This document shows positions 3,857-63,326 of a stretch of DNA of 64,000 bases, piece by piece. The DNA is taken from assembly GCA_018896875.1 (NCBI GenBank), contig JAHILT010000006.1, positions 12,605-76,604 on the forward strand, written 5' to 3'. The stretch's first letter is position 1, and each line of letters begins with the position of its first letter. This DNA comes from Patescibacteria group bacterium. GTDB lineage: Bacteria > Patescibacteriota > Minisyncoccia > UBA6257 > 02-FULL-45-10c. The position numbers and the translations under genes are program-made. The notes below the pieces were generated by a model, which had not been told where the DNA came from, did no database searches, and saw nothing but the letters and a program-made list of their open reading frames with translations.

Positions 3857-4756
3857 ATGGCACATATTCCTGTTCTTTTAAATGAAGTAATAGAATTACT
3901 AAATCCAAAAAATGGCGAATTCTTTATAGACGGAACTTTTGGCGCTGGTGGTCATTCTAAAAAAATTTTAGAAATGATAGGAGAGAAGGGGCTTCTTCTT
4001 GCATTTGATTGGGACCCTTCGACAGAGCTCAGGGCGAACAAAAAAGTAGAAGAAAGAAATGAGAGTTTTTTGACAAAAAAGAATGTTATATTCGTTAATG
4101 ATAATTTTACGAGAATTAAAGACGTTCTTCAGGAAAAAAAACTACCTAAGGCAGATGGATTGTTATTAGATCTAGGATTTTCTTCTGATCAACTTAGTGA
4201 TTCCGGAAAAGGATTTAGTTTTAAAAAAGATGAACCATTAATAATGTCTTATAGTGAGAATGGATTAACAGCTTATGAAGTAATTAATTCTTATTCAGAA
4301 GAAGACATTGAAGGAATTATTAAGGACTTAGGAGAAGAAAGATTTTCTAAAAGGATTACGAAAGCTATTATAAATAATAGAAAGAAAGAACCTATTAAGA
4401 CTAGTTTTCAGTTAGCAAAAATTATAAGAAATGCTGTTCCCGGGAATTATGAAAGAAGGAGGATTGACCCAGCCACAAGGACATTTCAGGCATTAAGGAT
4501 TTTTATTAATAGCGAATTAGAGAATCTTAAAGCAATTCTTGATGACTTAGAATTAATTTTAAAAAAAGAAGGACGAGTAGTTATTATATCATTTCATTCT
4601 TTAGAAGACAGAATCGTTAAAAATTATTTAAGAAATTTAAAAAATGAAAAAAAGGTCGAACTTTTAACTAGAAAACCCATTATTGCTTCTTGGCAAGAAG
4701 TATCAAGTAATCCGAGAAGCAGATCAGCTAAATTAAGAGGTGCAATATTAATTTAA
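3857..4756 (+). CDS. rsmH: 16S rRNA m4C1402 methyltransferase RsmH
   Basis: HIPVLL, GTFGAGGHS, DLGFSS, FQALRIFIN and SFHSLEDR motifs. Confidence 0.95.
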   Translation: MAHIPVLLNEVIELLNPKNGEFFIDGTFGAGGHSKKILEMIGEKGLLLAFDWDPSTELRANKKVEERNESFLTKKNVIFVNDNFTRIKDVLQEKKLPKADGLLLDLGFSSDQLSDSGKGFSFKKDEPLIMSYSENGLTAYEVINSYSEEDIEGIIKDLGEERFSKRITKAIINNRKKEPIKTSFQLAKIIRNAVPGNYERRRIDPATRTFQALRIFINSELENLKAILDDLELILKKEGRVVIISFHSLEDRIVKNYLRNLKNEKKVELLTRKPIIASWQEVSSNPRSRSAKLRGAILI

Positions 4757-8263: not shown

Positions 8264-9406
8264 ATGGATAAGTTTAATTTTAAAATATCTAAGAAAAGTA
8301 AAAAAAGTCAGGCTCGCGCTGGAATTATAAATACTCCTCATGGATTAATTCATACTCCTACTTTTTTCCCTGTTGGTACTAAAGCTACAGTAAAGGGGAT
8401 TACTCCTAGACAGTTAGATGAAATGAATATAGAAGCAGTTTTATGCAATACTTATCATTTATTTCTTAGGCCTGGAGACAAAATTATTAAAAAACTTGGT
8501 GGATTACATAAATTTATGAATTGGTCCAAACCTATTATTACTGATAGTGGTGGATTTCAGGTTTTTAGTCTTGGTTTTGGCATGAAACATGGAGTTTCAA
8601 AAATAGTTGGGTCTAATAAAAAAAATACAAGAAATAAAAATACAGAACAATTCGCAAAAATAACAGAAGAAGGAGTTCATTTCAGGTCATTTATAGATGG
8701 AGCAAAGCATTTTATCAGTCCAGAAGATTCTATGAAAATTCAAGAAAATTTAGGAGCAGATATCATATTTGCTTTTGATGAATGCACCTCTCCTCTTTCT
8801 AGTTATAAATACACGAAAGAAGCTATGGACCGCACTCATCGTTGGGCGATAAGATCTTTAAAAGCACACAAGAAGAAAAATCAAATGCTTTTTGGTATAG
8901 TACAGGGAGGAGAATTTAAAGATTTACGTTTAGCTAGTTCTAAATTTATAGGTGGAATGGATTTTGATGGTTTTGGCATAGGTGGTTCTTTTGGCAAGTT
9001 TGAGAAAAAGATTAAAAATGTTTTAGATTGGTCATTGGAGTATTTACCAGAAACTAAACCAAAACATCTTTTAGGTATAGGCTCGGTAAAAGATGTTATT
9101 GACGCTATCAAAAAAGGAATAGATACATTTGATTGTGTGTCTCCTACTAGGCTAGGGAGAAATGGTACGGCTATTACCGCAAAAGGTAATTTAAATCTCA
9201 AGGCTGGCCGTTTTTTATTAGACAAAAAACCAATTGAGACGGGATGCCAGTGCTATGCGTGCGTTAATTTTAATAGAGCATATATAAGACACTTGTTTCA
9301 AAGCGAGGAGATGTTAGCAGGAATATTAACTACATTACATAATGTTTATTTTATGGATAAATTGATGAAGGACATAAGAAAAGATATACTTAAGGGGAAG
9401 TTTTAG
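8264..9406 (+). CDS. tgt: Queuine tRNA-ribosyltransferase (tRNA-guanine transglycosylase)
   Basis: TPxFxPVGT, DSGGFQVFSL, and the zinc site CQCYAC...H. Confidence 0.9.
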   Translation: MDKFNFKISKKSKKSQARAGIINTPHGLIHTPTFFPVGTKATVKGITPRQLDEMNIEAVLCNTYHLFLRPGDKIIKKLGGLHKFMNWSKPIITDSGGFQVFSLGFGMKHGVSKIVGSNKKNTRNKNTEQFAKITEEGVHFRSFIDGAKHFISPEDSMKIQENLGADIIFAFDECTSPLSSYKYTKEAMDRTHRWAIRSLKAHKKKNQMLFGIVQGGEFKDLRLASSKFIGGMDFDGFGIGGSFGKFEKKIKNVLDWSLEYLPETKPKHLLGIGSVKDVIDAIKKGIDTFDCVSPTRLGRNGTAITAKGNLNLKAGRFLLDKKPIETGCQCYACVNFNRAYIRHLFQSEEMLAGILTTLHNVYFMDKLMKDIRKDILKGKF

Positions 9407-9410
9407 AATT

Positions 9411-9755
9411 ATGAATATATTTAAATTTAAGAAAGATAAATTCTTATTTTATCCATTATTGGCGAGTTTTATTCTTTTTTTAGCGTCTTTGCTTTTGGCT
9501 TTTTTAGGATTACTAGATACGAACAATCTTTTAATTTTACATTTTGATGGTTATAAAGGTATTGATTTTTTAGGGGAGAAAAAAGACATTTTTAATGTAG
9601 TGTTTCTATCTTTGGGTATGATTTTTTTAAATTTTTTTCTAGCTAAAAAAATATATTTTAAAGAAAGATTTTTGTCTTATTTGCTCGCCTTTATGACTCC
9701 ATTATTCTCTTTGTTGATTTTTATATGTGTTTTTGTTATTATATCTATTAATTAA
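9411..9755 (+). CDS. Hypothetical small membrane protein (about 3 TM helices)
   Basis: Hydrophobic segments only. No recognisable motif. Confidence 0.5.
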   Translation: MNIFKFKKDKFLFYPLLASFILFLASLLLAFLGLLDTNNLLILHFDGYKGIDFLGEKKDIFNVVFLSLGMIFLNFFLAKKIYFKERFLSYLLAFMTPLFSLLIFICVFVIISIN

Positions 9756-9769
9756 AGTGTATTAATATC

Positions 9770-10081
9770 ATGAAAATTGCAGTTATAGAAACAGGAGGAA
9801 AACAATATAAGATTATTGTTGGACAAAAACTTAAAGTAGAGAAACTAGACCAAGAGATTGGCACAGAGTTTGTTTTTGATAAGGTTCTATTATTGTCTGA
9901 AGATGATAAGGTTGAAGTTGGGTGTCCTTATTTAAAGAATACCAAGGTTAAGGTAATGATAATAAAAAACAAAAAAGATACTAAAAAAATTGTTTTTAAA
10001 TATCATGCCAAGAGTAGATATAGAAAGAAAAAAGGACATAGACAACAAATTACAGAAGTAGAAATATTAGATATTAAATAA
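9770..10081 (+). CDS. rplU: 50S ribosomal protein L21
   Basis: MKIAVIETGGKQYKI...HRQ signature. Confidence 0.9.
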   Translation: MKIAVIETGGKQYKIIVGQKLKVEKLDQEIGTEFVFDKVLLLSEDDKVEVGCPYLKNTKVKVMIIKNKKDTKKIVFKYHAKSRYRKKKGHRQQITEVEILDIK

Positions 10082-10105
10082 CCTCGCTACAAAGCGAGGT
10101 TATTT
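10081..10105 (+). terminator. Intrinsic terminator after rplU
   Basis: ACCTCGCT-ACAA-AGCGAGGT followed by a T-rich tail. Confidence 0.75.
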
Positions 10106-10134
10106 AATAAAAAGGCGACTCAAATGAGTCGCCT
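10106..10134 (-). terminator. Intrinsic terminator of the minus-strand wHTH gene
   Basis: AGGCGACTC-AAAT-GAGTCGCCT with an A-run on the plus strand (a T-run on the minus strand). Confidence 0.75.
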
Positions 10135-10139
10135 TAGTT

Positions 10140-10430
10140 TTATTCAGTTGGGCCCTTTTCAAGAAGAGAATCAAAAGTTTTTAAAAAACGCTTACCACGC
10201 CAGCTTAGCACATATCTAACCAGAATGAGGTTGTTTTTAATGGGCGTAGTCTTTATAAAGATATAGAATTCGCTACGCAGGAATTTCAAAGCATACTCTA
10301 TTTGTTTTGAATTTACTTGCAATTTTTTCTGAATTTCACTGATGAGGAGACCTTCTTGCCCCCGCAGAGCAAAGAGCATGCCCAAGATACAAAGGCGATC
10401 CTTGTTTGTTAGTTCTATCTTTCTAGCCAT
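10140..10430 (-). CDS. Small winged-helix DNA-binding protein (orphan, SD-led)
   Basis: 96 aa with a wHTH-like core (LLISEIQKKLQVNSKQIEYALKFL). Strong SD GGAGGA (complement of 10435-10440). Has its own terminator. Confidence 0.5.
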   Translation of the reverse strand: MARKIELTNKDRLCILGMLFALRGQEGLLISEIQKKLQVNSKQIEYALKFLRSEFYIFIKTTPIKNNLILVRYVLSWRGKRFLKTFDSLLEKGPTE

Positions 10431-10481
10431 TTTATCCTCCTATAAAATTTTTAACGATCTATTTAAAATAGGTATATCGTA

Positions 10482-11822
10482 TTAATGATATTTATCAATA
10501 CTCACAAAGCCAACTCTTTCTTGATCAAATTTTAATTTAATTGTTCCTGTTGGTCCATTTCTATGTTTAGCGATAATAATTTCTGCCGAATTTATTTCGC
10601 TAGCAAGAGGATTAGATTTATTGTAGTCTTTTCTGTGAATAAACATAACTACGTCTGCGTCTTGCTCTATTGATCCACTCTCTCTTAAATCAGAAAGTCG
10701 CGGTTTTTTATTTTCTCGTTGTTCAACACCTCTGGAAAGTTGAGATAATGCTAAAACGGGGATATTTAATTCCCTAGCTAATCCTTTTAATCCTCTAGAA
10801 ATTTCTGTAACTTGTTGCACTACATTATCTGCGCTCCTACGAGGCTGAATGAGTTGTAAGTAGTCTACAATCAAAAGATCTAATCCAGATTCTGCTTGAA
10901 GTCGTCTAGCCATAGATCTCATCTGTAAAATATTTGGAGAAGGGGTGTCGTCTATAAAAATTGAGACTCCATCAAGTTCATCTAAAGCTTTTTGAATATC
11001 GGAAAAAGCATCTTCTTTTTTTAGTTTTCCGGTTCTCAAGTTCCATAATGGAACCTGAGCTTGAGATGAAATAAATCTATCTACTACTTGTTCTTTGGAC
11101 ATTTCTAATGAAAAAATACCAACAGATTTTTTTTCATTGACTGCTACGTGTCTAGCTATATCTAAAGAAAGGGCCGTTTTTCCTAATGATGGCCTTGCTC
11201 CGATAATTATAAGATCAGAATTTTGTAGTCCAGAAAGTATATTATCTATATCTGTAAAACCAGTAGGAACTCCTCTTAGTCTACCTTCTCCATTGTGCAA
11301 GTTTTCTATTCTTTCATAAGCACTTACTAATCCTTCTTTAATAGTTGAAAATTTTTGAGAGATAGATCGTTGAGAAATAGAAAAGATTTTTTTTTCTATC
11401 TCGTCCAACATATCTTCCATGTTTTCATTGGGATTAAAAGCTTTTTCAGAAATTTTTCCAGAAGCGGTTATTAAATCTCGGCAAACTTTTTTTTCTTTAA
11501 CAATTTTAGCATAGTGATTAATATGCGCGGCAGAAGGAACCGATTCAATCATCTTGGTGAGATAAGCATTTCCTCCTATATCTTTAAATAAGCCAGATTC
11601 TTTTAATTTATTAGATACAGTAAAAAGATCTATTGGCTCTCTTTTGTCGTGAAGATCTAAAATAGCTTCATAAATTTTTTCATGAGCTGGTTTATAGAAA
11701 TCTTCTGATGACAAAATATCAGCGATATTAATAATTGCGTTTTTGTCTATCATTAAGGCGCCTAATACAGATTGTTCGGCTTCGATATTTTGTGGTGGTA
11801 GTTTTAATTTTTTAGAAATCAT
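10482..11822 (-). CDS. dnaB: Replicative DNA helicase DnaB
   Basis: PPQNIEAEQSVLG N-terminus, Walker A GARPSLGKT, IVDYLQL, SQLSR. Confidence 0.95.
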   Translation of the reverse strand: MISKKLKLPPQNIEAEQSVLGALMIDKNAIINIADILSSEDFYKPAHEKIYEAILDLHDKREPIDLFTVSNKLKESGLFKDIGGNAYLTKMIESVPSAAHINHYAKIVKEKKVCRDLITASGKISEKAFNPNENMEDMLDEIEKKIFSISQRSISQKFSTIKEGLVSAYERIENLHNGEGRLRGVPTGFTDIDNILSGLQNSDLIIIGARPSLGKTALSLDIARHVAVNEKKSVGIFSLEMSKEQVVDRFISSQAQVPLWNLRTGKLKKEDAFSDIQKALDELDGVSIFIDDTPSPNILQMRSMARRLQAESGLDLLIVDYLQLIQPRRSADNVVQQVTEISRGLKGLARELNIPVLALSQLSRGVEQRENKKPRLSDLRESGSIEQDADVVMFIHRKDYNKSNPLASEINSAEIIIAKHRNGPTGTIKLKFDQERVGFVSIDKYH

Positions 11823-11824
11823 TT

Positions 11825-13327
11825 TTAATCCTTACTTATTAAAGGACCTATTATTGTGTCCTCTATAATATATCCTAAGCTTTTTATTTTGTTTCTCAAT
11901 AGATCGGATTTAGTAAATTGTTTATTTCCTCTGCATAACTCTCTTTCTTGGGCTAATATGGTTATATTTTTAGGTATTTTGTGTGTTTTTAAGGTGGTTC
12001 CTAAAAATATAGATAATTTTTTAATTATAAATTTTTTAATTATAGTAGCTTCGTTTTTGGATAGCGTCCATATTTTAGGTTCTATCGTATTTATTAATTC
12101 AAAAATTGAAGCTATTGCTTTCGGAGTATTAAAGTCATCACTCATAGCAATATCAAAATTGTTTTCTGCTTTTTTAAGAAGATATTCAATTTCAGAGCTG
12201 ACAATTCCTTTTTCCTTTATAAAAGATAGAGAGGTTATTATTTTTTGTAATTTTTTAAGTGTATTAATACCTTGTTCTGCGGATTTTTCGGTATAATTAA
12301 AAGACGAACGATAATGATTGAGATTTATGAGTAGTCTTAGAATTTCTGGAGAATATTTTTTCGTAAAATCTTTTATTGTTGTAAAGTTTTTTAAAGATTT
12401 AGACATTTTTTTTCCATCAATCAAAAGAAATCCTGTATGCATCCATATTTTTACCATTGGTTTTTTACCAGAAGCTGATTCTTGTTGGGTAATTTCTGCT
12501 TCGTGGTGTGGAAATTTTAAATCTACGCCACCACCATGAATATCATATTGTGAACCAAAATAATGTTCGCTAATAGCTGTGTCTTCAATGTGCCATCCTG
12601 GACGACCCCAGCCGAGAGAAGTATACCAAACTGGTTCGTAGTTAATGATTTTCATTGAATTTTTCTTTCTGTGTAAGTCTGCGTTTATATCCCCGCCGAA
12701 GGCGCCGCCAGTAGCGAGCCTCGCCAAGGGCGGGAGGCTCGCCCTTTCGGGCGGCGCGCTAATCTGCGTTTTGGAGAATTTCCATAAAGCAAAATCTCCT
12801 TTGTTTTTTTTGTTTATATCATTATCAATTCTTGATGTTGCATCTTCGGCTTGAGAAGCGGTTCGTTTTGAGAGTTTTCCGTATTCTGGGAAAGTAGAAA
12901 TATCAAAATAATATCCGTCATTTATTTTATAGGCGCATCCTTTTTTAATTAATGTTTGGATTTGTTTTATGATTTGAGGAATGTGTTTACTAGCTTTAGC
13001 GTGTTTAACTGATTTTATATTCAATATTTTTTCAATTTTGTAATACTCTTTTTCAAATTTATTTGCTAATTCAAGAGGACTAATATGTTTTTCTTTAGCT
13101 CTTTCAATTATTTTATCATCAACATCTGTAATATTTTGAAGATAAAAAACATTTATTTTTTTAGATCTCAAATAACGCACAATAGTATCAAAGGCAATAT
13201 AAGTTCTGCCATGTCCAAGATGGGGATTGTCATATACTGTTGGACCGCAAACAAACAAACGTAACGGGCGAGTATTTGGTAGGTTTTCTTTTTTTCCGCT
13301 TAGGCTACTATATATTTTTATAGCCAT
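11825..13327 (-). CDS. cysS: Cysteine--tRNA ligase, carrying a GC-rich in-frame insertion
   Basis: HLGH (HIGH), GRPGWHIE and KMSKS motifs. Confidence 0.9.
   Translation of the reverse strand: MAIKIYSSLSGKKENLPNTRPLRLFVCGPTVYDNPHLGHGRTYIAFDTIVRYLRSKKINVFYLQNITDVDDKIIERAKEKHISPLELANKFEKEYYKIEKILNIKSVKHAKASKHIPQIIKQIQTLIKKGCAYKINDGYYFDISTFPEYGKLSKRTASQAEDATSRIDNDINKKNKGDFALWKFSKTQISAPPERASLPPLARLATGGAFGGDINADLHRKKNSMKIINYEPVWYTSLGWGRPGWHIEDTAISEHYFGSQYDIHGGGVDLKFPHHEAEITQQESASGKKPMVKIWMHTGFLLIDGKKMSKSLKNFTTIKDFTKKYSPEILRLLINLNHYRSSFNYTEKSAEQGINTLKKLQKIITSLSFIKEKGIVSSEIEYLLKKAENNFDIAMSDDFNTPKAIASIFELINTIEPKIWTLSKNEATIIKKFIIKKLSIFLGTTLKTHKIPKNITILAQERELCRGNKQFTKSDLLRNKIKSLGYIIEDTIIGPLISKD
12674..12773. 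repeat. GC-rich palindromic module inside cysS, bounded by TCTGCGTTT direct repeats
   Basis: GC-rich block at 12691-12760 with hairpins CGCC-GAA-GGCG, GCGAGCCTC...GAGGCTCGC and GCCC-TTTC-GGGC. TCTGCGTTT occurs at 12678-12686 and 12763-12771. Confidence 0.8.
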
Positions 13328-14397: not shown

Positions 14398-15249
14398 ATG
14401 CATCGTATGAAAACTTATATTATTAATTCAAGGAATGATAAAGAGATTTTTTCTTTCCATAAGGTTTTAAGATCGGCCAAAAGATCAGGGGCTTCACTTA
14501 CTGTATCCCAGCATATTGCCAAGCAAATTGAAAAAGAAGTTTATCCAGGAATTAAAACTTCAGAAATTTTCAAGAGAATAAAGGAGTTGCTTTCAAAAAA
14601 AACACCACAAGTAGCTTTAAAGTTTTCTTTAAGAGAAGCGATGAATAAGCTTGGTCCTACAGGCTTTCCATTTGAAGAGTTTATAAAAGGAATTTTAATA
14701 AATAATGGGTTTGAGGTAAAGATTAATCAATATATATCTGGGGTTTCTTCTATTTCTTATGAAATAGATTTTTTGGCGACAAAAGGAAAGTTAATATATA
14801 TAGGGGAGTGTAAATATCGCAATATGGCAGGAGAAAGAGTAGACATAAAGGTTGCTTTATATAATTATGCTCGTTTTTTAGATATTAAAAATAATTCTTA
14901 TTTTAAAAAACTTCAAGCAAATAAATTTAGAATAAAATCAATGTTAGTAACAAATACTAAATTTACCACATATGCAATTAAATACTCCGAATATCAAAAA
15001 ACAGAACTTCTAGGTTGGAAATATCCATTAAACAAAGGATTAGAGTATTTTATTGAAAAAGATGGGCTTTATCCAATCACTATTCTACCTTCTCTCAAAG
15101 GAGGCTTAAAAAATATTTTTATTCAAGAGGGAATAATGTTGGCTAAAGATTTATTGGACTTAGATATTGATTTATTTTCAAAAAATTTGAATATTCCTAA
15201 AAAATATATTTTACCGTTAATTGACGAAGCGAAAATCTTATTAAAATAA
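14398..15249 (+). CDS. ATP-cone domain fused to a PD-(D/E)xK (Mrr-like) nuclease domain
   Basis: ATP-cone-like N-terminus (EIFSFHKVLRSAKRSGAS...TSEIFKRIKELL). Nuclease core EIDFLA...(13 aa)...GECKYR. Confidence 0.55.
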   Translation: MHRMKTYIINSRNDKEIFSFHKVLRSAKRSGASLTVSQHIAKQIEKEVYPGIKTSEIFKRIKELLSKKTPQVALKFSLREAMNKLGPTGFPFEEFIKGILINNGFEVKINQYISGVSSISYEIDFLATKGKLIYIGECKYRNMAGERVDIKVALYNYARFLDIKNNSYFKKLQANKFRIKSMLVTNTKFTTYAIKYSEYQKTELLGWKYPLNKGLEYFIEKDGLYPITILPSLKGGLKNIFIQEGIMLAKDLLDLDIDLFSKNLNIPKKYILPLIDEAKILLK

Positions 15250-15265
15250 AAACATCTGAATGTTT

Positions 15266-15751
15266 TTATTTTTTAAAGCGGATAGCTTTTGGCAAGTTGT
15301 ATTTTTTTGAAAGTAGAGCATATTCAAAAATACCCTCTGTTTTTAATTGATTATTTTTTTTGTCTTTTCCGCCGAAGGCGGATCCGCCTTCGGCGGAAAT
15401 TTCTACTTTGATAATTATGCGATTGGTTTTAATTTTTACAAACTTTGCATTTGCTAATAATATTTTATCTTTATTTAAAATAATTGGATGATAAAATTTT
15501 ATTTTTTTTATTTCTGCTAATGGAGTAAAATATTTTGAATGCATCATGGCTACGGCTACTCCAGCGGCGTTTCCGAGTACAACTTGAACTCCGCCAGTTA
15601 TTATTTTGCCTTGAGCGCATTCTTTCATAGTTGAAGGCATTGAGATGACGGCTGAATTGGTATCTAGACTAATTAAAGATATTTGAAACCAATGAACAAA
15701 AGGATGTTTTTTAAACCATTTTTTAACCTCTTTGCTTTTTTTATTGTCCAT
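15266..15751 (-). CDS. PaaI/hotdog-fold thioesterase carrying a 30-bp palindrome in frame
   Basis: NSAVISMP...GKIITGGVQVVLGNAAGVAVAM pattern, typical of PaaI-type thioesterases. Confidence 0.6.
   Translation of the reverse strand: MDNKKSKEVKKWFKKHPFVHWFQISLISLDTNSAVISMPSTMKECAQGKIITGGVQVVLGNAAGVAVAMMHSKYFTPLAEIKKIKFYHPIILNKDKILLANAKFVKIKTNRIIIKVEISAEGGSAFGGKDKKNNQLKTEGIFEYALLSKKYNLPKAIRFKK
15368..15397. repeat. Perfect 30-bp palindrome (two tandem TCCGCC-N4-GGCGGA hairpins) inside a CDS
   Basis: TCCGCCGAAGGCGGATCCGCCTTCGGCGGA equals its own reverse complement. It encodes SAEGGSAFGG on the minus strand. Confidence 0.95.
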
Positions 15752-20372: not shown

Positions 20373-21116
20373 TTATTTTTTATTTTTAATCGACTCTTTT
20401 ATTTTTCTAAGGTATTTAATATTTTTTTCATAATCCATTCTTTTCGGTCCGATAGCTACTAAATAAAATTTATTATTATCAATATTGTAAGAATCTATTA
20501 TTACAGATAAAAACTTGCTTTCGGTAACAGGGCTTTTCTTGCCAATAAATATTTTAGGAAAATTTGAATTATTTATTATCTTTGGAAGTTTCTCTAGTTT
20601 TTCATCAAGCATCTCAAAATCTTTGGCTATTTGACAAAAATCATCTCGTTCGTTTATTTCTAAATTTTCAAAAAGTTCGTTTAGTCCCGTTTTGTAAACT
20701 CTATTTTCATCGGTTCTGTAACCAGCACTTAAGAGTTGCATATCTTGAGAAATTTTATCTAAGAAGTTTGACCATTTTTCATCATCTAAAATGTTTATCC
20801 CAACACATAATTTATGTGTGGGATTTATTAATTTATTAAAATTTTGATGAAAAATTTCTGCTGAATCAAAAAAATCTTGAACTATATTATTAACGATAAA
20901 TTGATAACCCTTATCGGTAGGGATGCGTCCTCCGGAAATGTGAGACTGACTTAAAAAACCTTGTTCAGTTAATTTATTGAATTCAGAACGAATAGTAGCG
21001 TCTTTCACTCCGAATTTATATTTATTTACAATCTTTTTAGAACTTACTGGTTGTCCTTGTTTAATAAACTCTTGAATAGCAGCTTCTAATATTTTATATG
21101 TTCTTTCGTCAAACAT
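20373..21116 (-). CDS. hrcA: Heat-inducible transcription repressor HrcA (short form)
   Basis: N-terminal wHTH (ERTYKILEAAIQEFIKQGQPVSSKKI...DATIRSEFNKLTEQGFL). Operon context, with a CIRCE element upstream. Confidence 0.8.
   Translation of the reverse strand: MFDERTYKILEAAIQEFIKQGQPVSSKKIVNKYKFGVKDATIRSEFNKLTEQGFLSQSHISGGRIPTDKGYQFIVNNIVQDFFDSAEIFHQNFNKLINPTHKLCVGINILDDEKWSNFLDKISQDMQLLSAGYRTDENRVYKTGLNELFENLEINERDDFCQIAKDFEMLDEKLEKLPKIINNSNFPKIFIGKKSPVTESKFLSVIIDSYNIDNNKFYLVAIGPKRMDYEKNIKYLRKIKESIKNKK
20798..20823. repeat. Collapsed hairpin made of the two MITE terminal repeats, inside hrcA
   Basis: TCCCAACACATAA-T-TTATGTGTGGGA. The right arm is identical (12/12) to the copy A right terminus. 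The left arm differs by one extra A. Confidence 0.7.
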
Positions 21117-21166: not shown

Positions 21167-21186
21167 AATCCGCCAGCTGGCGGATT
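21167..21186. repeat. Perfect 20-bp GC-rich palindrome in the hrcA leader/promoter region
   Basis: AATCCGCCAGCTGGCGGATT. Same TCCGCC...GGCGGA arms as the palindrome at 15368-15397. Confidence 0.9.
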
Positions 21187-21262: not shown

Positions 21263-21269
21263 TAACTAT

Positions 21270-21316
21270 GGAGCAATTTCCAACGGCTCATATATTGAGC
21301 CGTTGGAAATTGCTCC
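21270..21316. repeat. Perfect 21-bp-stem hairpin (REP-like), copy 1
   Basis: GGAGCAATTTCCAACGGCTCA-TATAT-TGAGCCGTTGGAAATTGCTCC. The core recurs at 35558-35592. Confidence 0.9.
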
Positions 21317-21427
21317 AAATGGCGGTTTTAGTTTTGTTTTTAAATTTTAATAATTTTACATTTTTTATGATTTGCCATTTCAAAAATAATTTCGTACAAT
21401 AATCAACATATTATTTAGACCTAAAAA

Positions 21428-24737: not shown

Positions 24738-26036
24738 ATGGATATGAATATCTGGGAAATAGCGCCTAGCATAGGAAGATTTATTTCGGAGTTTTTAATA
24801 AGTAGCTGGTGGGTGATTATGCCTATCGGTTTGTTTTTTATTTTTATAAATTTTTGGTGTTGGGGATTAAGAGTTCTTTTTTTGCAAAAAATGGAATGGG
24901 TTTTTTTAGAAATTAGACTTCCAAGAAATATTTTAAAGACTCCGAAAGCGATGGAGAATATTTTTACTGGACTCCATAGTCTCTATTCTGGAGAGTTATC
25001 ATGGGAAGATATTTATTTAAAAGGAAAGGTTATGCCTTGGTATTCTTTTGAAATTGTTGGTTATGCCGGTGGTGTAAGTTTTTATGTTAGGGCGCCAGAA
25101 TTTACTAGAAATTTAGTTGAATCTGCGGTTTATTCTGAATATCCTGATGCAGAAATATCTTTGGCTGATGATTATATAAATTTTATGCCGAATGTTTTAC
25201 CTAATAATACTTATGATATTTGGGGCAATGACTATGTTTTATCTAAAGATAATCCGTATCCTATAAAAACTTATCCTTATTTTGAGTCTCCATCTGAAGA
25301 ACAAAGACTTGATCCTGTCTCTGCTATAACAGAAGTTATGTCCAAATTACACGAAGGAGAGGCTATTTGGCTTCAGTATCTTATGATGCCCGTCGGAGAA
25401 AAATGGAAAGAAGAAGGAGACGAGATAAGAGATAAAATGTATGCGAGAAAAAAACCGTCATCTCCTCCCAGCTTTTTAGGCGGACTTATTGATGGTCTCT
25501 TAGAGTTTTTTAAAAATTTATTAAAAGGAGTTATTGAAGAACCTATATGGGCAGATGAAAAAAAACAAAATGAAGATAAACTTCAAACACCGCATTTGTC
25601 CCCAGGAGAAAGGAATGTTTTGGAGGCTGTTGAAAATAAGGTTTCTAAATTTGGTTTTGAAACAGCCGTGAGGTTTGTTTATATTGATAAGGCAGATGAA
25701 TTTACACAACTTAATGTTTCTGCTATATCTGGCGCCTTTAAACAATTTGGCACTCAGGATATGAATAGTTTTAAAATTGTAAGCGATACCAAGACATTTG
25801 TTACTAGTTCTAAATTTACAACTAAGAGTTGGTTTAGAAAAAGCAAAGTACATGCAAGAAAAAGAGCTATCTATGACGCTTATAGATTAAGATCTATTCC
25901 TTCAAAAACTTCTATTTTATGTACAGAAGAATTAGCAACAATTTATCACTTCCCATTATCTAGCGTGGAAGCTCCGCTTTTGCGCAGATTAGAAACTAGA
26001 AAAGGAGAGCCTCCTGTTAGTTTACCAATTGCTTAA
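24738..26036 (+). CDS. Hypothetical membrane protein (2 N-terminal TM helices plus a large soluble domain), partner of the downstream ATPase
   Basis: Two hydrophobic helices at residues ~15-50. 17-nt gap to the next gene on the same strand. Confidence 0.5.
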   Translation: MDMNIWEIAPSIGRFISEFLISSWWVIMPIGLFFIFINFWCWGLRVLFLQKMEWVFLEIRLPRNILKTPKAMENIFTGLHSLYSGELSWEDIYLKGKVMPWYSFEIVGYAGGVSFYVRAPEFTRNLVESAVYSEYPDAEISLADDYINFMPNVLPNNTYDIWGNDYVLSKDNPYPIKTYPYFESPSEEQRLDPVSAITEVMSKLHEGEAIWLQYLMMPVGEKWKEEGDEIRDKMYARKKPSSPPSFLGGLIDGLLEFFKNLLKGVIEEPIWADEKKQNEDKLQTPHLSPGERNVLEAVENKVSKFGFETAVRFVYIDKADEFTQLNVSAISGAFKQFGTQDMNSFKIVSDTKTFVTSSKFTTKSWFRKSKVHARKRAIYDAYRLRSIPSKTSILCTEELATIYHFPLSSVEAPLLRRLETRKGEPPVSLPIA

Positions 26037-26053
26037 ATAACAATTTACTTACT

Positions 26054-27604
26054 ATGGATGATATAACAATATTTGGAAAAACAAATTTTAGAAACGAAGA
26101 AAAAAGATTTGGTATAAAAACTGACGATAGAAGACGCCATATGTACATCATAGGTAAAACGGGCGTAGGAAAATCAACGTTGTTAGAAAATATGATTGTG
26201 GCTGATATTAAGGCTGGGAAGGGCGTTGCTTTGGTTGATCCTCATGGAGAAACAGCTGAAAAAATACTTGATTTTATTCCAGAGGAAAGACTAAATGATG
26301 TCGTTTATTTTAATCCTCAGGATATTAATTTCCCTATTGCTTTTAATCCGTTGGAACAGGTAGGGATAGAATACAGATACTTAGTGGCTTCTGGCATTAT
26401 GGGTGTTTTCAAAAAAATATGGCCCGATGTTTGGTCTGCTAGAATGGAGTACATATTAAATAATTCTTTATTAGCGCTTTTAGAATATCCAGGTTCTACT
26501 TTATTAGGCATAATGAGACTTCTTTCGGACAAGGAGTATAGAAAAGTTATTGTTGATAATTTGCAAGATCCAGTGGTAAAAAGTTTTTGGACAAATGAAT
26601 TTGCTAAATATACCCAAAGATTAGAAAGTGAAGCTACTGCTGCTATTCAAAATAAAGTTGGGCAGTTTGTTACTAATCCGCTTATTAGAAATGTTTTAGG
26701 GCAATCTAAATCGTCTATAGATATGAAAAAAATGATGGATGAAGAGAAGATTTTAATTGCTAATCTTTCTAAGGGAAAAATAGGAGAAGATAATTCTAAT
26801 TTATTAGGAGCTATGCTTATTACTAAAATTCAGCTAGCCGCAATGTCTAGGGTTGATACACCAGAAAATCAAAGAAAAGATTTTTATCTTTATGTAGATG
26901 AATTTCAAAATTTTGCCACTGATTCTTTTGCCGCTATTTTATCTGAAGCTAGGAAGTATCATTTGTGTCTTATTATGGCTCATCAATATATTCGTCAACT
27001 AACAAACGGCGAAAATACAAAAGTTAGAGATGCTGTTTTTGGTAATGTTGGCACAATGATAGCTTTTAGGGTTGGGGCTGAAGATGGAGAGTTTTTAGAA
27101 AAAGAATATCAACCAGATTTTTTGGTAAATGATTTTGTTAATCTTCCTAAATATAATTTTTATACTAAGTTAATGATTGATGGTGTTGCTTCTAAACCAT
27201 TTTCTGCTAAATCTGTAGGGCCGTTAGAACAATCAGGAGAAAGTTTTAAGGATGTCGTTATAGAAAATAGCCGTAGAGTCTATAGTACTCCAAGAGAAGT
27301 TATAGAAAAGAAGATAGCATTAGAATGGTCAGTTGGAGGAAGAGAATTGGCACAAAATAAGTTAGGTAAAACAACAGAACGTCCTTTATCTGAAGTTTTA
27401 GAACAAACAGACAAATATAAAGGCAATTCCTTTGGACATAGAGAGCAAGAAAGAAGAACAGCTCCAAAACATTTTGATAGACCGGCTAAAAAAAAGGTAG
27501 ACATGGTTGATTTAAGAAAAGCGTTAAAACAAAGTTTGACTAAAGATTTTGGAGATCAAGAAAGTATTCCCGAAAGCCCTAAAAAAGATGAGAATATAAT
27601 ATAG
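26054..27604 (+). CDS. VirD4/TraD-like (FtsK-HerA superfamily) P-loop ATPase, soluble, orphan
   Basis: Walker A GKTGVGKST, Walker B FYLYVDEFQNF, ARKYHLCLIMAHQYIRQL (coupling-protein-like), basic/acidic C-terminal tail. Confidence 0.65.
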   Translation: MDDITIFGKTNFRNEEKRFGIKTDDRRRHMYIIGKTGVGKSTLLENMIVADIKAGKGVALVDPHGETAEKILDFIPEERLNDVVYFNPQDINFPIAFNPLEQVGIEYRYLVASGIMGVFKKIWPDVWSARMEYILNNSLLALLEYPGSTLLGIMRLLSDKEYRKVIVDNLQDPVVKSFWTNEFAKYTQRLESEATAAIQNKVGQFVTNPLIRNVLGQSKSSIDMKKMMDEEKILIANLSKGKIGEDNSNLLGAMLITKIQLAAMSRVDTPENQRKDFYLYVDEFQNFATDSFAAILSEARKYHLCLIMAHQYIRQLTNGENTKVRDAVFGNVGTMIAFRVGAEDGEFLEKEYQPDFLVNDFVNLPKYNFYTKLMIDGVASKPFSAKSVGPLEQSGESFKDVVIENSRRVYSTPREVIEKKIALEWSVGGRELAQNKLGKTTERPLSEVLEQTDKYKGNSFGHREQERRTAPKHFDRPAKKKVDMVDLRKALKQSLTKDFGDQESIPESPKKDENII

Positions 27605-35557: not shown

Positions 35558-35592
35558 ATTTCCAACGGCTCATATATTGAGCCGTTAGGAAT
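35558..35592. repeat. REP-like hairpin, copy 2
   Basis: ATTTCCAACGGCTCA-TATAT-TGAGCCGTTAGGAAT. One bulged A relative to the copy at 21270-21316. Confidence 0.85.
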
Positions 35593-40096: not shown

Positions 40097-40133
40097 CCCC
40101 CACACTTATATTAAGTGTGGGGGTTTATTTTTT
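40097..40133 (+). terminator. Intrinsic terminator with MITE-like arms
   Basis: CCCCCACACTTA-TAT-TAAGTGTGGGGG followed by TTTATTTTTT. Confidence 0.9.
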
Positions 40134-61448: not shown

Positions 61449-63326
61449 TTTTTAAATTTTTTCAAGGATAGAAATCATACAGTTGTTTCGTCTTCTTCTT
61501 TGGTGCCGAATGATTCTTCGGTGCTTTTGACAACTGCTGGAATGCAACAATTTAAACCGTATTATACAGGCAAGGTTGATCCAATAAGAGATTTTGGTAG
61601 TAAGAGCACGGTTTCAATTCAGAAATGTTTTAGAACTTCTGATATTGAAGAAGTAGGAGACGACACACATCTTTCATTCTTTGAAATGTTTGGCAATTTT
61701 TCTTTTGGTGATTATTTTAAAAAAGAAGCAATCCATTATGCTTATAAATTTGTGGTTGAAGAACTTGGAATTGAAAGAAATAGAATTTACGTAACAATTT
61801 TTGCTGGTGATAATTCTGTCTCTGGAGACGAAGAATCTTTTAAAATTTGGAACGAAGAAATTGGGTTGCCTAAAAAACAGATAAAACGAAGAGGTCGCTC
61901 GGACAATTGGTGGGGACCAACTGGCAGCGAAGGTCCTTGTGGTCCAACTACAGAAATTTATGTTGCCAAAAATTTAGATGACGCAAGATTAGGCAATGGG
62001 TTAGAAATATGGAATATTGTTTTTAATGAATATTATCAGAACAAAAAAGGAGATTTTGATAAATTAGAAATACCGGGAATTGATACGGGAATGGGTTTGG
62101 AGAGATTAGCTGTTATGACACAGGGAGCTAATAATATTTTTGAAACAGATTTATTCATTCCTATAATAAGGCAAATTAAAGAAGTGAGTAATGGATTAGA
62201 ACCCCGAATTATAAGAATTTTGGCCGACCACATTCGCTCATCTATTTTTTTAATTGCTGATGGTGTTAGACCGTCAAACAAAGAAACAGGCTATATTTTA
62301 AGAAGATTTTTAAGAAAAGTTATAGTTTATGGTTCTAAATACGATATTCATGCTGATTTATTTCCAGTTGTTTTAGAGAGGGTCGCTGAAATTTTTGGAG
62401 AAATTTATCCAGACCTAAAAAATAAGGAAGAAATTTTGAATGTTTATTATGAAGAAAAGGGGAAATTCAATAAAGCGCTAAGCAATGGATTAAAAATTTT
62501 TAATGATTTTGTTTTACGAATAAAACCAGAAAACTCAATACATAAATTACAAAAAATTTTAGGTATTGGTCGTTTTCAAAATATATTTCATGGCAAAGAA
62601 GCTTTCTCTCTTTATGAAACCTATGGGCTTCCTAAGGAATTAATACAAGAATTTTGCGAAGAAAAAGGGATTGTTTTTGACGAAAAAGGCTTTGATGAAG
62701 AATACAAGAAGCATCAAGAAGTTTCTCGGGCTGGATCTGAGAAGAAATTTGGCGGACATGGTTTAGTTTTGGATACAGGAGAATTAAAAGCTGGATCTCA
62801 GGAAGATTCAGAAAAAGTTATTAAATTACATACTGCTACTCATTTACTTCAGCAAGCGTTACGTAATGTCTTGGGTAATGATGTTAAACAAATGGGGTCA
62901 GATATTAATTCCGAAAGAGGAAGATTTGATTTTTCTTTTAATAGAAAACTCACGGAAGAAGAAATTGAGAAAGTAGAGGAAGAAATAAATGAAATAATAA
63001 ACAAAGACCTTCCAGTTTATTATAAAGAAATGTCTATAGAAGAAGCTAAAGAAACAGGAGCGCTTTATTTCTTTAAGGAAAAATACCCCAATAAAGTACG
63101 AGTGTACTTTATTGGCCCGAAAGATGGCTTTCCTTCGACAAGCTCCCGCCCAGCAGAGCTGGGCGAGGCTCGCCCCAAAGGGGTGGCAGGACGTGCTTAT
63201 AGCGTAGAATTTTGCGGAGGACCACACGTAGAGAACACTCTTAAAGTTGGAAAGTTCAAAATACAAAAACAAGAATCTGTTGGGGCAGGGGTAAGAAGAA
63301 TTAAGTTTGGAGTGATTACTGCTTGA
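61422..63326 (+). CDS. alaS: Alanine--tRNA ligase, short form (no C-Ala domain) with a GC-rich in-frame insertion
   Basis: N-terminus MTSIELRKKFLNFFKDRNH, FFEMFGNFSFGDYFK, editing-site HTATHLL and CGGPHV. The start is placed at 61422. The track start at 61335 reads through the insert. Confidence 0.9.
   Translation: MTSIELRKKFLNFFKDRNHTVVSSSSLVPNDSSVLLTTAGMQQFKPYYTGKVDPIRDFGSKSTVSIQKCFRTSDIEEVGDDTHLSFFEMFGNFSFGDYFKKEAIHYAYKFVVEELGIERNRIYVTIFAGDNSVSGDEESFKIWNEEIGLPKKQIKRRGRSDNWWGPTGSEGPCGPTTEIYVAKNLDDARLGNGLEIWNIVFNEYYQNKKGDFDKLEIPGIDTGMGLERLAVMTQGANNIFETDLFIPIIRQIKEVSNGLEPRIIRILADHIRSSIFLIADGVRPSNKETGYILRRFLRKVIVYGSKYDIHADLFPVVLERVAEIFGEIYPDLKNKEEILNVYYEEKGKFNKALSNGLKIFNDFVLRIKPENSIHKLQKILGIGRFQNIFHGKEAFSLYETYGLPKELIQEFCEEKGIVFDEKGFDEEYKKHQEVSRAGSEKKFGGHGLVLDTGELKAGSQEDSEKVIKLHTATHLLQQALRNVLGNDVKQMGSDINSERGRFDFSFNRKLTEEEIEKVEEEINEIINKDLPVYYKEMSIEEAKETGALYFFKEKYPNKVRVYFIGPKDGFPSTSSRPAELGEARPKGVAGRAYSVEFCGGPHVENTLKVGKFKIQKQESVGAGVRRIKFGVITA
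63126..63197. repeat. GC-rich palindromic module inside alaS
   Basis: Contains CCTTCGACAAGCT (also at 29847-29859), CCCAGC-AGA-GCTGGG, and GGGCGAGGCTCGCCC (compare GGGCGGGAGGCTCGCCC in cysS at 12728-12744). Confidence 0.85.

What the first reader, a model, noticed from the sequence alone, without database searches (positions are those of the whole stretch)
12674..12773. GC-rich palindromic module translated inside cysteinyl-tRNA synthetase
Conserved CysRS motifs DFALWK and GRPGWHIE normally lie about a dozen residues apart. Here the protein carries about 40 extra residues between them (…APPERASLPPLARLATGGAFGGDINADLHRKK…).

The core, at 12691-12760, is strikingly GC-rich in an AT-rich gene. 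It is built from hairpins CGCC-GAA-GGCG, GCGAGCCTC/GAGGCTCGC and GCCC-TTTC-GGGC, and is bounded by TCTGCGTTT direct repeats.

Sub-modules recur elsewhere:
- CGCCGAAGGCG at 15370-15380
- GGGCG(G)GAGGCTCGCCC in alaS at 63161-63175
- AGTCTGCG units in ppsA and thrS

This resembles the Rickettsia palindromic elements, which insert in frame into protein-coding genes.
Basis: partly seen in the sequence, partly recalled or inferred. Interest (0 to 1): 0.7.

Follow-up and report, generated by a model that had tools for sequence, protein, structure and literature searches.

The report
Selfish GC-rich hairpin inside CysRS gene
A 72-base GC-rich hairpin repeat sits in frame in a floppy surface loop of an essential enzyme gene in a tiny AT-rich Patescibacteria genome, and it belongs to a scattered repeat family not found in the searched literature that behaves like the "selfish DNA inside genes" known from Rickettsia and yeast mitochondria.

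Summary
Window 12689-12760 (minus strand, CysRS codons S190-D213) is a 72-nt, 76% GC palindromic block in a 31% GC Patescibacteria genome.

- **Recent insertion.** It is absent from the closest orthologue (80% identity, syntenic).
- **Not an artefact.** An independent assembly carries it with one SNP.
- **Tolerated position.** It lies in a loop that ranges from 14 to 57 residues among 119 CysRS relatives. This loop holds the only low-confidence segment of an otherwise confident AlphaFold model.
- **A dispersed family.** A metagenome scan found homologous copies in frame in three unrelated genes: a helicase, an M29-like/GGDEF protein and a CHAD-like protein. A profile built only from those three recovers the cysS copy (E=5.5e-10) and a second window copy in alaS (E=2.9e-4). 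The alaS copy has a clean empty site in two close relatives.
- **Flanking repeats.** The TCTGCGTTT repeats are not a target duplication. They are units of a separate roughly 10-nt-period array that other CysRS genes carry at the same loop without the GC core.
- **A wider pattern.** At least three more short insertions, two of them clear hairpins, interrupt other genes in frame. All five sized insertions are multiples of three.

Best reading: a translated, selfish or neutral palindromic repeat. It works like Rickettsia palindromic elements and mitochondrial GC clusters but is not a member of either. How it moves is unknown.

The parts
11825..13327 (-). cysS, cysteinyl-tRNA synthetase (500 aa), the host gene
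   Evidence: ORF. It is 100% identical to NCBI 'cysteine--tRNA ligase [Patescibacteria group bacterium]' (P0001). The AF2 model has mean pLDDT 90.4 and matches CysRS structures at TM 0.85-0.90 normalised by target length.
12689..12760 (-). E1: the 72-nt GC-rich palindromic insert (76% GC), codons S190-D213, peptide SAPPERASLPPLARLATGGAFGGD
   Evidence: Coordinates. It is absent from the 80%-identical syntenic orthologue L081 (24-residue gap). A profile built from three external copies hits 12759-12687 on the minus strand at E=5.5e-10. It is present in the independent assembly L104 with one mismatch. Residues 197-219 are the only segment with pLDDT below 50.
12761..12772 (-). Array unit 1 (sense AAA ACG CAG ATT, K186-I189). 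It contains one copy of the 9-nt repeat (12763-12771).
   Evidence: The same ACGCAGATTx units occur 3-4 times at this loop in L083 and L084 with no GC core.
12662..12688 (-). Array units 2-3 (sense ATA AAC GCA GAC TTA CAC AGA AAG AAA, I214-K222). They contain the other copy of the 9-nt repeat (12678-12686).
   Evidence: The peptide INADLHRKK matches NADLRRKK of P0034 and P0035.
63135..63197 (+). E3: a second copy of the same family, 63 nt and 70% GC, in frame in alaS (61335-63326). It lies in the loop before the CGGPHV motif of the editing domain.
   Evidence: The external-copy profile hits 63129-63182 on the plus strand at E=2.9e-4. There is a clean empty site in L101 (89% identity) and L100 (88% identity). 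Where scored, this loop is short in most of the 150 AlaRS representatives, from about 2 to about 10 aa in those read by eye.
15368..15397 (-). E2: a perfect 30-nt GC-rich palindrome, TCCGCCGAAGGCGGA plus TCCGCCTTCGGCGGA, in frame as SAEGGSAFGG in the ORF 15266-15751. It shares CCGCCGAAGGCG with E1.
   Evidence: Clean 30-nt insertion versus L081. DNA fold -17.9 kcal/mol, z = -5.96.
4016..4039 (+). E4: a 24-nt insert CCTTCGACAGAGCTCAGGGCGAAC, in frame as PSTELRAN in rsmH. The same CCTTCGACA-AGCTC string sits at the 5' edge of E3 in alaS.
   Evidence: Clean insertion versus L081. It is also present in a second MAG assembly, L102, which is 99.85% identical. It has no significant fold of its own (z = -0.40).
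20793..20822 (-). E5: a 30-nt AT-rich hairpin insert in hrcA, made of a 24-nt hairpin CCCACACATAAATTATGTGTTGGG plus a 6-nt duplication ATAAAT/ATAAAC.
   Evidence: Clean insertion versus L081. Fold z = -2.87.

Best explanation
E1 is one copy of a dispersed family of roughly 60-75-nt GC-rich palindromic (long-hairpin) repeats. The core consensus is GGCGAGCCTCCCGCC - 3-4 nt - GGCGAGGCTCGCC(C) - 3-4 nt - GG(G)CGGCGCC, closed by an outer GCCGCC/GGCGGC stem in three of the four compared copies (E1, L095, L097).

**Shown.**
- The copy entered cysS after this lineage split from its closest sequenced relative.
- It landed in a loop that tolerates almost any length and already held an older short-repeat array.
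- It is exactly 24 codons long with no stop codon.

**Inferred.**
- It is transcribed and translated as a disordered Pro/Ala/Gly/Arg/Leu-rich excursion on the enzyme surface, leaving the CysRS fold and motifs intact.
- It is selfish or neutral DNA.
- Within genes of a gene-dense genome, copies may survive mainly where their length is a multiple of three and the site is a permissive loop.

**How it spreads is not shown.** My best guess is copying or transposition of a single-stranded hairpin. The reasons are that the clean empty sites of the smaller hairpin inserts show no target duplication (one shows 6 nt), that intergenic terminator-like hairpins of the same design exist in these genomes, and that no transposase was seen.
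For: **Recent insertion**
- Absent from L081, which is 80% identical in CysRS and syntenic (CorA-CysRS-DnaB).
- Absent from nearly all of 119 relatives.

**A real sequence**
- The independent assembly L104 matches window 8660-12825 with one mismatch. That mismatch lies in a hairpin loop of E1.

**A family**
- A metagenome scan gave 5 loci.
- L095, L097 and L099 align with the E1 sense strand over about 75 nt, well beyond the 26 bases fixed by the search pattern.
- A profile built from those three finds E1 at E=5.5e-10 and E3 in alaS at E=2.9e-4, and nothing else in the window.
- E3 was not used to design the search pattern.

**In frame in unrelated hosts**
- Helicase (L095), M29-like/PAS/GGDEF protein (L097), CHAD-like protein (L099), CysRS and AlaRS.
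- Copies occur in both orientations and in different reading frames.

**A permissive site**
- The loop spans 14-57 aa in relatives.
- PDB CysRS chains leave query residues 187-230 unaligned.
- pLDDT falls below 50 only at residues 197-219, while the whole model has mean pLDDT 90.4 and TM 0.85-0.90 to CysRS structures.

**Translated rather than removed**
- All five insertions sized against close relatives are multiples of 3: 72, 63, 30, 30 and 24 nt.
- The chance of that is (1/3)^5 = 0.004 if frame did not matter.
- None carries a stop codon in the host frame.

**Same design in intergenic hairpins**
- TCCGCCAGCTGGCGGA is intergenic at window 21169-21184 and in L085/L010.
- The same 16-mer is in frame in cysS of L085 but absent from L010. 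Flanking genes of that pair are 98-100% identical (most 99-100%); cysS itself is 95.2%.
Against: - Only five coding copies and two intergenic variants of the E1 family were found. The copy number per genome is unknown (2 in 64 kb here).
- A translated six-frame search for E1-like peptides found nothing, not even the source protein, so that test was uninformative.
- The external copies were found with a pattern taken from E1, so part of the similarity is there by construction.
- No transposase, RAYT or IS was seen in the 30 window ORFs scanned. No consistent target-site duplication was found.
- Transcription and translation of the insert were not observed.
- The exact ends of E1 cannot be fixed, because the flanking loop differs completely from the closest relative.
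- The organisms carrying L095, L097 and L099 (45-56% GC) were not identified.
Confidence: 0.8

Rival explanations
1. The insert is a functional, lineage-specific protein feature: a selected extension of the CysRS connective-peptide region, for example for binding tRNA or a partner.
For: The loop is extended in many Patescibacteria, commonly to 33 aa. Part of the extension (MKII, residues 225-228) is predicted as a confident beta strand pairing with residues 231-236.
Against: - The 24 residues are missing from the closest relative.
- Their composition is that of GC-rich DNA rather than of a folded segment, and they are predicted to be disordered.
- The same DNA occurs in other genes in other frames and in the opposite orientation, where it gives unrelated peptides.
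Confidence: 0.03
2. The insert is an assembly or binning artefact: a chimeric join or a misassembled GC-rich read.
For: The source is a metagenome-assembled genome. Another assembly of the same population breaks 40 nt from the insert, where L103 and L104 overlap at 12800-12825.
Against: - L104, from the Logan assembly of SRR13662871, reads straight through E1 with a single SNP and keeps the frame.
- Homologous in-frame copies occur in JGI, ENA and NCBI assemblies made by different groups.
- E4 is present in a second MAG.
Confidence: 0.02
3. The insert is not translated. It is removed from the mRNA (intron-like) or skipped by the ribosome, as with the bypass elements derived from GC clusters in Magnusiomyces mitochondria or T4 gene 60.
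For: - It is a strong hairpin in the mRNA (-48.7 kcal/mol).
- GC clusters in one yeast mitochondrion are bypassed during translation (PMC8811140).
- Identical 9-mers flank the insert.
Against: - The insert is exactly 24 codons with no stop, and all five sized inserts are multiples of 3. That constraint is needed only if they are translated.
- The flanking 9-mers lie in different reading frames, so they cannot serve as matched take-off and landing codons.
- There is no Rfam match, intron or otherwise.
Confidence: 0.05
4. The insert was generated locally, with no mobile family involved. GC-rich palindromes would arise on the spot by template switching or hairpin-primed synthesis at a fragile loop, or by stepwise accretion of small hairpins.
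For: - E1 and E3 share only parts, so the make-up is modular.
- L086 to L082 shows a small hairpin that has apparently grown from within.
- E2 is a tandem pair of one hairpin with the loop flipped.
- Two clean empty sites (E2, E4) show no target duplication.
Against: E1 matches copies in unrelated genes of other organisms over about 75 nt, including the tails. Independent local generation would not produce that. The sequence is unrelated to its AT-rich flanks.
Confidence: 0.07
5. The insert is a co-opted nucleic-acid signal. The hairpin would act at the DNA or RNA level, for example as a terminator of antisense transcription, a translation pause, a protein-binding site or a recombination hotspot, with the peptide as a by-product.
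For: - E2 scores as a terminator-like hairpin on the strand of the convergent neighbouring gene, 119 nt past that gene's stop.
- The same hairpin designs occur as intergenic terminator-like structures.
Against: - E1 itself is not followed by a T-run and is not called terminator-like.
- Copies occur in both orientations relative to their host genes.
- No covariation supports a conserved RNA: 0 of 21 predicted pairs show compensatory change.
- The insert is absent from close relatives with the same gene order.
Confidence: 0.05

Closest known systems
Rickettsia palindromic elements (RPEs; Ogata et al. 2000, as summarised in PMC10969869)
   Same: - Short palindromic repeats dispersed in a small, AT-rich, reduced genome.
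- Inserted in frame into unrelated housekeeping genes, including aminoacyl-tRNA synthetase-type enzymes.
- Compatible with protein fold and function.
- No transposase of their own, and a mechanism of spread that is unknown.
   Different: - The host is Patescibacteria, not Rickettsia.
- Length is about 60-75 nt rather than roughly 100-150 bp.
- The element is strongly GC-rich against a 31% GC background.
- Copies sit in both orientations and several reading frames, so there is no conserved element-encoded peptide, whereas each RPE family encodes one.
- Sequence similarity to RPE families was not tested.
Yeast mitochondrial GC clusters (var1 in-frame insertions; PMC8811140)
   Same: - GC-rich palindromic clusters in a very AT-rich genome.
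- Mostly intergenic, but also in frame in a protein gene, where they give size polymorphism.
- Clusters merge and shuffle to form new ones. This matches the modular make-up of E1, E2 and E3 and the nested growth seen from L086 to L082.
   Different: - The genome is bacterial, not organellar.
- No AG/TAG terminal repeats were seen.
- There is no evidence for ribozyme activity or for translational bypass.
REP/BIME elements mobilised by RAYT transposases (PMC3733652)
   Same: Short GC-rich imperfect palindromes forming stable stem-loops, present in multiple copies. A hairpin-recognising single-strand transposase would be a plausible mobiliser.
   Different: - REPs are extragenic by definition, whereas these copies are intragenic and translated.
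- The GTAG/CGTC tag is not conserved among the copies.
- No RAYT was seen in the window, though the scan was incomplete.
Bacterial MITEs that make in-frame fusions (ERIC, BOX, QMITE1, Correia; PMC10969869)
   Same: Non-autonomous short repeats that are occasionally found inside ORFs.
   Different: MITEs have terminal inverted repeats matching a parent IS, and a defined target-site duplication. No parent IS and no consistent duplication were found here.

Membership tests
Rickettsia palindromic elements (RPE) | Short palindromic repeat present in multiple dispersed copies | tested here: met
   Long-hairpin fold. Two copies lie in the window (cysS, alaS), and there are three coding plus two intergenic relatives in metagenome contigs.
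Rickettsia palindromic elements (RPE) | Inserted in frame in unrelated protein-coding genes without disrupting them | tested here: met
   In frame in CysRS, AlaRS, a helicase, an M29-like protein and a CHAD-like protein. The CysRS model keeps its fold.
Rickettsia palindromic elements (RPE) | Each family encodes a conserved peptide (same frame and orientation in its host genes) | tested here: not met
   E1 and E3 are in the sense orientation, while L095, L097 and L099 are antisense. E1 reads LARLA where E3 reads LGEARP from the same DNA motif.
Rickettsia palindromic elements (RPE) | Sequence homology to RPE-1 to RPE-10, and occurrence in Rickettsia | not testable with these tools
   No RPE sequences or Rickettsia genomes were available. 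The host is annotated as a Patescibacteria group bacterium. No Rfam family matched.
Rickettsia palindromic elements (RPE) | Length of roughly 100-150 bp | tested here: not met
   E1 is 72 nt and E3 is 63 nt. The aligned family core is about 75 nt.
REP/BIME with RAYT | Extragenic location | tested here: not met
   Five of seven family copies lie inside ORFs.
REP/BIME with RAYT | Conserved GTAG or CGTC tetranucleotide at one end of the palindrome | tested here: not met
   GTAG precedes the inner stem only in E1 (plus strand, AGTAGCGAGCC). The other copies have CTCTGG, TTTAGG and GAGCGG there.
REP/BIME with RAYT | A cognate RAYT (Y1 transposase) gene in the genome | tested here: inconclusive
   None among the 30 window ORFs scanned with Pfam. 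Only 64 kb of the genome is available.
MITE | Terminal inverted repeats plus a fixed-length target-site duplication | tested here: inconclusive
   The ends are inverted repeats simply because the whole element is a palindrome. A TA...TA duplication is possible for E1. There is none at the clean empty sites of E2 and E4, 6 nt at E5, and nothing clear at E3.
MITE | A parent insertion sequence sharing the ends | tested here: inconclusive
   No transposase in the window. No blastn match in the plasmid or phage collections.
Mitochondrial GC clusters / translational bypass elements | GC-rich palindromic cluster in an AT-rich genome, found in frame in a coding region | tested here: met
   76% GC against 31% GC, and in frame.
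Mitochondrial GC clusters / translational bypass elements | Bypass signature: matched take-off and landing codons, a length not constrained to multiples of 3, stops inside the element | tested here: not met
   No stop codon in frame. All five sized inserts are multiples of 3. The flanking 9-mers are in different frames.
Self-splicing intron / intein | Catalytic RNA core or intein splicing motifs | tested here: not met
   72 nt is too short for either. Rfam found no match above gathering score and only chance-level hits at permissive thresholds.

The most novel reading that the evidence does not exclude
Patescibacteria, and perhaps other groundwater bacteria, may host an undescribed population of hairpin elements. 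It would include the GGCGAGCCTC...GAGGCTCGCC family, the TCCGCC-loop-GGCGGA hairpins, CACAC...GTGTG hairpins and ACGCAGA arrays.

These elements would copy themselves, or copy terminator-like intergenic hairpins, into permissive loops of essential proteins. The mechanism would act on single-stranded hairpins and leave no target duplication.

The result would be nested composite inserts at hotspots such as the CysRS and AlaRS loops. This would be a major source of protein-length variation in these ultra-small genomes.
Probability: 0.35. Interest if true: 0.75.

Novelty: new variant of a known kind. Interest (0 to 1): 0.62.

Why it matters
**Extends a rare phenomenon.** In-frame selfish DNA inside essential genes has been treated as a peculiarity of Rickettsia and of yeast mitochondria. 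Finding the same behaviour in Patescibacteria suggests it recurs in very small, AT-rich, gene-dense genomes. In such genomes permissive protein loops may be among the few tolerated landing sites.

**Practical consequences.**
- The inserts inflate and diversify proteins used as phylogenetic markers (aaRS genes, RsmH, HrcA).
- They may affect assembly or read coverage. One contig break lies 40 nt from E1, though its cause was not established.
- They generate odd Pro/Ala/Gly/Arg-rich or 'NADLRRKK'-type peptides that could be mistaken for real motifs.

**A tractable system.** Clean filled and empty site pairs between close relatives give a way to work out how hairpin elements move without an obvious transposase.

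Tried and rejected
- **Six-frame peptide search.** I concatenated translations of E1 and searched the 5.8-billion-protein database. Nothing scored, not even the source protein.
- **Genome-collection scan with CysRS.** It returned mostly distant, non-Patescibacteria loci. Only about 10 were useful, and none carried the element.
- **Short shared motif on viral contigs.** GGGCG..AGGCTCGCCC....GGG gave only chance hits in contigs of 56-71% GC. The longer family pattern gave none.
- **9-nt repeats as a target-site duplication.** Rejected. The 85-nt spacing breaks the frame, the two copies are read in different frames, and L083 and L084 have the same units with no GC core.
- **Known RNA families.** Rfam gave nothing at gathering thresholds and only chance-level hits at permissive ones.
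- **Covariation test of an RNA structure.** All pairs are invariant, so the test is uninformative.
- **Plasmid and phage blastn.** No match.
- **Transposase hunt in the window.** None found among 30 ORFs.
- **Literature searches.** Searches for the motifs and for intragenic palindromes in Patescibacteria/CPR found no description.
- **Consistent target site.** TAT(A) abuts the element in E1, E3, L095 and L099 (3' side) and in L097 (5' side). This is suggestive only, because the boundaries in the metagenome copies are not fixed.
- **Recollection of a 'PFDKLRAN' repeat peptide.** I recalled E4/E3's CCTTCGACAAGCTC as part of a widespread repeat. I could not document it, so it is not used as evidence.
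Full report
**What is there**

The window is a 31.4% GC contig. Its CysRS is 100% identical to an NCBI protein annotated 'Patescibacteria group bacterium' (P0001). cysS lies on the minus strand at 11825-13327 and encodes 500 aa.

Between the motifs DFALWK and GRPGWH the protein has 57 residues. Among 119 relatives the baseline is 15 residues, and many Patescibacteria have about 33. A GC-rich island reaches 78-80% GC. It is one of only six stretches of at least 24 nt that reach 75% GC in the 64 kb.

The sense strand folds at -48.7 kcal/mol, z = -3.05. GC-rich perfect hairpins number 18 raw hits (about 13 distinct) in the window, against 0.43 expected.

**Size and limits of the insert**

The closest relative is L081, on a 445-kb JGI contig. 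It is 80% identical in CysRS, with the same CorA-CysRS-DnaB order. It has 33 residues in this loop and no GC-rich block.

Codon-by-codon comparison gives a net difference of 24 codons. I place the insert at codons S190-D213, window 12689-12760: 72 nt, 76% GC, peptide SAPPERASLPPLARLATGGAFGGD.

What remains around it reads FSKTQI|INADLHRKKNSMKIINY. This is the translation of repeated ACGCAGAyTT units. L083 and L084 (P0035 and P0034) carry 3-4 such units at the same place with no GC core, as FSKTQIYANRNADLRRKK and FSKTRINADLNADLRRKK.

The two TCTGCGTTT copies are therefore units of that array. They are 85 nt apart, which is not a multiple of 3, and they are read in different frames. They are not a duplication made by the GC element.

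Of the roughly 42 extra residues relative to canonical CysRS, 24 come from the GC module. The rest is an older, lineage-variable extension. Part of that extension (MKII, residues 225-228) is predicted as a real beta strand.

**It is real, and it sits in a permissive place**

An independent assembly, L104 (Logan, SRR13662871), matches window 8660-12825 with a single mismatch. That mismatch lies inside E1, in a hairpin loop: CCGCCGACGGCG versus CCGCCGAAGGCG.

PDB CysRS sequences align on both sides and leave query residues 187-230 unaligned. An AlphaFold2 model built on 68 sequences has mean pLDDT 90.4. Its only segment below 50 is residues 197-219. The model matches CysRS crystal structures at TM 0.85-0.90, normalised by target length.

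The loop is a hotspot. Other relatives carry different GC-rich inserts there:
- P0003/L082 has a 67-nt GC-rich block.
- P0006/L086 has a near-identical hairpin (TCCGCC-GGCT-GGCGGA), and P0009/L085 has the 16-nt hairpin TCCGCC-AGCT-GGCGGA itself; P0012 shows the same NPPAGG peptide, but its DNA was not fetched.
- L085 has the hairpin while L010 lacks it. Flanking genes of that pair are 98-100% identical (most 99-100%), and cysS itself is 95.2% identical.

Array-type loops are scattered over a neighbour-joining tree of the 119 CysRS sequences, interleaved with 15-residue loops.

**It belongs to a dispersed family**

A metagenome scan used a pattern taken from the inner hairpins and found five loci.

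| Locus | Position relative to genes |
|---|---|
| L095 | In frame in a UvrD/AddA-like helicase, between GSGKT and ILAITFTNKAA |
| L097 | In frame in an M29-like domain of a PAS/GGDEF protein, where the match to PDB 7CN3 is interrupted |
| L099 | In frame in a CHAD-like protein |
| L096, L098 | A shorter intergenic variant |

Because the element is palindromic, the pattern matched E1's plus strand. The real correspondence is between the E1 sense (minus) strand and the plus strand of L095 and L097. They align over about 75 nt, including tails that were not in the search pattern.

A profile HMM built only from the three external coding copies finds E1 at E=5.5e-10. It also finds a second site in the window at E=2.9e-4, the GC island in alaS, and nothing else.

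That alaS copy (E3, 63135-63197, 63 nt) has a clean empty site in two close relatives, L101 at 89% identity and L100 at 88% identity. Where scored, the loop it occupies is short in most of 150 AlaRS representatives, from about 2 to about 10 aa in those read by eye. A few carry other inserts there.

Relative to their host genes, E1 and E3 are in the sense orientation and the three metagenome copies are antisense. The shared DNA is read in different frames. There is therefore no conserved element-encoded peptide.

The consensus structure is one long hairpin. It shows no covariation: 0 of 21 predicted pairs change in a compensatory way. That says nothing either way about an RNA function.

**A wider phenomenon in this genome**

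I compared every ORF of the window with the sister contig over about 33 kb of shared gene order. The window-specific in-frame insertions of at least 3 residues are:

| Insert | Host gene | Size | Notes |
|---|---|---|---|
| E1 | cysS | 72 nt | GC-rich long hairpin |
| E3 | alaS | 63 nt | Same family as E1 |
| E2 | 161-aa ORF, 15368-15397 | 30 nt | Perfect GC-rich palindrome; shares CCGCCGAAGGCG with E1 |
| E4 | rsmH, 4016-4039 | 24 nt | Shares CCTTCGACA-AGCTC with the edge of E3; also present in a second MAG, L102, at 99.85% identity; no significant fold of its own (z = -0.40) |
| E5 | hrcA, 20793-20822 | 30 nt | 24-nt AT-rich hairpin plus a 6-nt duplication |

The sister genome has only one comparable insertion (12 nt, non-palindromic).

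All five window inserts are multiples of three. The probability of that is 0.004 if frame were irrelevant, and none has a stop in the host frame. This argues that they are translated rather than spliced or bypassed.

Hairpins of the same design also occur intergenically as terminator-like structures. Examples are TCCGCCAGCTGGCGGA at 21169-21184 and CCCCCACAC..GTGTGGGGG at 40097-40123. In addition, ACGCAGA-type arrays are in-frame insertions in ppsA (12 aa versus PDB 2OLS) and thrS (about 24 aa versus 1NYQ).

**How it most likely works**

Shown:
- It is a recent, in-frame, palindromic insertion.
- It belongs to a dispersed family.
- It lies in a hypervariable loop that is predicted to be disordered.

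Inferred:
- The insert is transcribed and translated into a harmless surface excursion.
- It persists as selfish or neutral DNA because, within genes of a gene-dense genome, permissive loops may be among the few sites where such insertions are tolerated.

Not shown: how it moves. There is no transposase among the 30 ORFs scanned. There is no consistent target duplication: none at E2 and E4, 6 nt at E5, and a possible TA at E1. TAT(A) abuts the element in all five coding copies, but the boundaries of the metagenome copies are not fixed.

The hairpin architecture, the intergenic look-alikes and the modular or nested composites (L086 to L082; shared blocks among E1, E2 and E3) are what one would expect from hairpin-directed single-strand transposition or templated copying. 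They also recall the 'merger and shuffling' described for yeast mitochondrial GC clusters (PMC8811140). This step is speculation.

**Comparison with known systems**

- **RPEs.** Functionally this is the behaviour described for Rickettsia palindromic elements, which are palindromic repeats inserted in frame in many unrelated genes (PMC10969869, citing Ogata et al. 2000). It also matches the in-frame GC clusters of yeast mitochondrial var1 (PMC8811140).
- **Not shown to be an RPE.** The length is 63-75 nt rather than 100-150. There is no conserved peptide or frame. The host phylum is different. Sequence homology to RPEs was not testable here.
- **Not a REP.** It is intragenic, the GTAG tag is not conserved, and no RAYT was seen.
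- **Not shown to be a MITE.** No parent IS and no fixed duplication were found.
- **Not a bypass element or an intron.**

Seven literature searches, plus searches for the motif strings themselves, found no description of such elements in Patescibacteria/CPR. The library does not cover subscription journals.

**Verdict**

It is best described as a new variant of a known kind of element: a GC-rich hairpin repeat family that colonises protein loops in Patescibacteria.

Confidence is about 0.8 that it is a translated, recently inserted copy of a dispersed palindromic repeat. Confidence in any specific mobility mechanism is low.

Noticed in passing
window 12662-12688 and 12761-12772 (cysS); 39103-39138 (ppsA); 52563-52649 (thrS): Short tandem arrays with a period of about 10 nt (ACGCAGAyTT and relatives such as GCGGAC, and AGTCTGCGT on the other strand) are translated in frame as 'TQINADLRRKK' or 'SPRQSASSLRKS'-type peptides. 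They are 12-aa and roughly 24-aa insertions relative to solved PEP synthase and ThrRS structures. The same array type sits at the same CysRS loop in phylogenetically scattered relatives. Their origin and spread are unexplained.
   Followed up: partly
window 15368-15397: E2 is a perfect 30-nt GC-rich palindrome in frame in a 161-aa ORF with no Pfam hit, and it is absent from the sister genome. On the opposite strand it scores as a terminator-like hairpin, 119 nt past the stop of the convergent gene 14398-15249. It could terminate the neighbour's transcript from inside a coding region.
   Followed up: partly
window 4016-4039 (rsmH) and 20793-20822 (hrcA): Two more clean in-frame insertions relative to the sister genome. 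One is a 24-nt block sharing CCTTCGACA-AGCTC with the alaS element. The other is a 24-nt AT-rich hairpin with a 6-nt duplication (ATAAAT/ATAAAC). A similar CACAC..GTGTG hairpin is intergenic at 40097-40123 and in frame in cysS of L085 and L010.
   Followed up: partly
window 21169-21184; L085 4525-4540 and 8857-8878; L010 6561-6582; L082 1500-1566: The 16-nt palindrome TCCGCCAGCTGGCGGA occurs as an intergenic terminator-like hairpin. It also occurs in frame in the CysRS loop of some relatives, and it is absent from L010 (flanking genes 98-100% identical to L085, most 99-100%). In L082 it appears to have grown from within to 67 nt.
   Followed up: partly
window 21269-21317 and 35564-35586: The palindrome AACGGCTCATATATTGAGCCGTT occurs twice in intergenic regions, once inside a 49-nt perfect hairpin upstream of secD. 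It looks like an operator or another repeat.
   Followed up: no
proteins P0066 and P0091 (CysRS relatives); P0154 (AlaRS relative): The CysRS loops of P0066 and P0091 contain 'GGEPR', which is the translation of GGCGGCGAGCCTCGC, the family core. The AlaRS loop of P0154 contains 'NPSTSSHSSLS', the same PSTSS string as the window's alaS insert. These may be independent hits of related elements at the same loops. The DNA was not fetched.
   Followed up: no
L103 and L104 (window 12800-12825): The Logan assembly of SRR13662871 breaks into two contigs that overlap by 26 nt, 40 nt from E1. The cause (coverage, a variant or a repeat) is unknown. A second MAG of the same population (GCA_022013275.1) seems to lack an intact cysS gene call.
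   Followed up: partly
window 26054-27604: A VirD4/TraG-like coupling-protein ORF (TrwB_AAD_bind, T4SS-DNA_transf) sits among housekeeping genes. Its neighbour at 24738-26036 has no Pfam hit.
   Followed up: no
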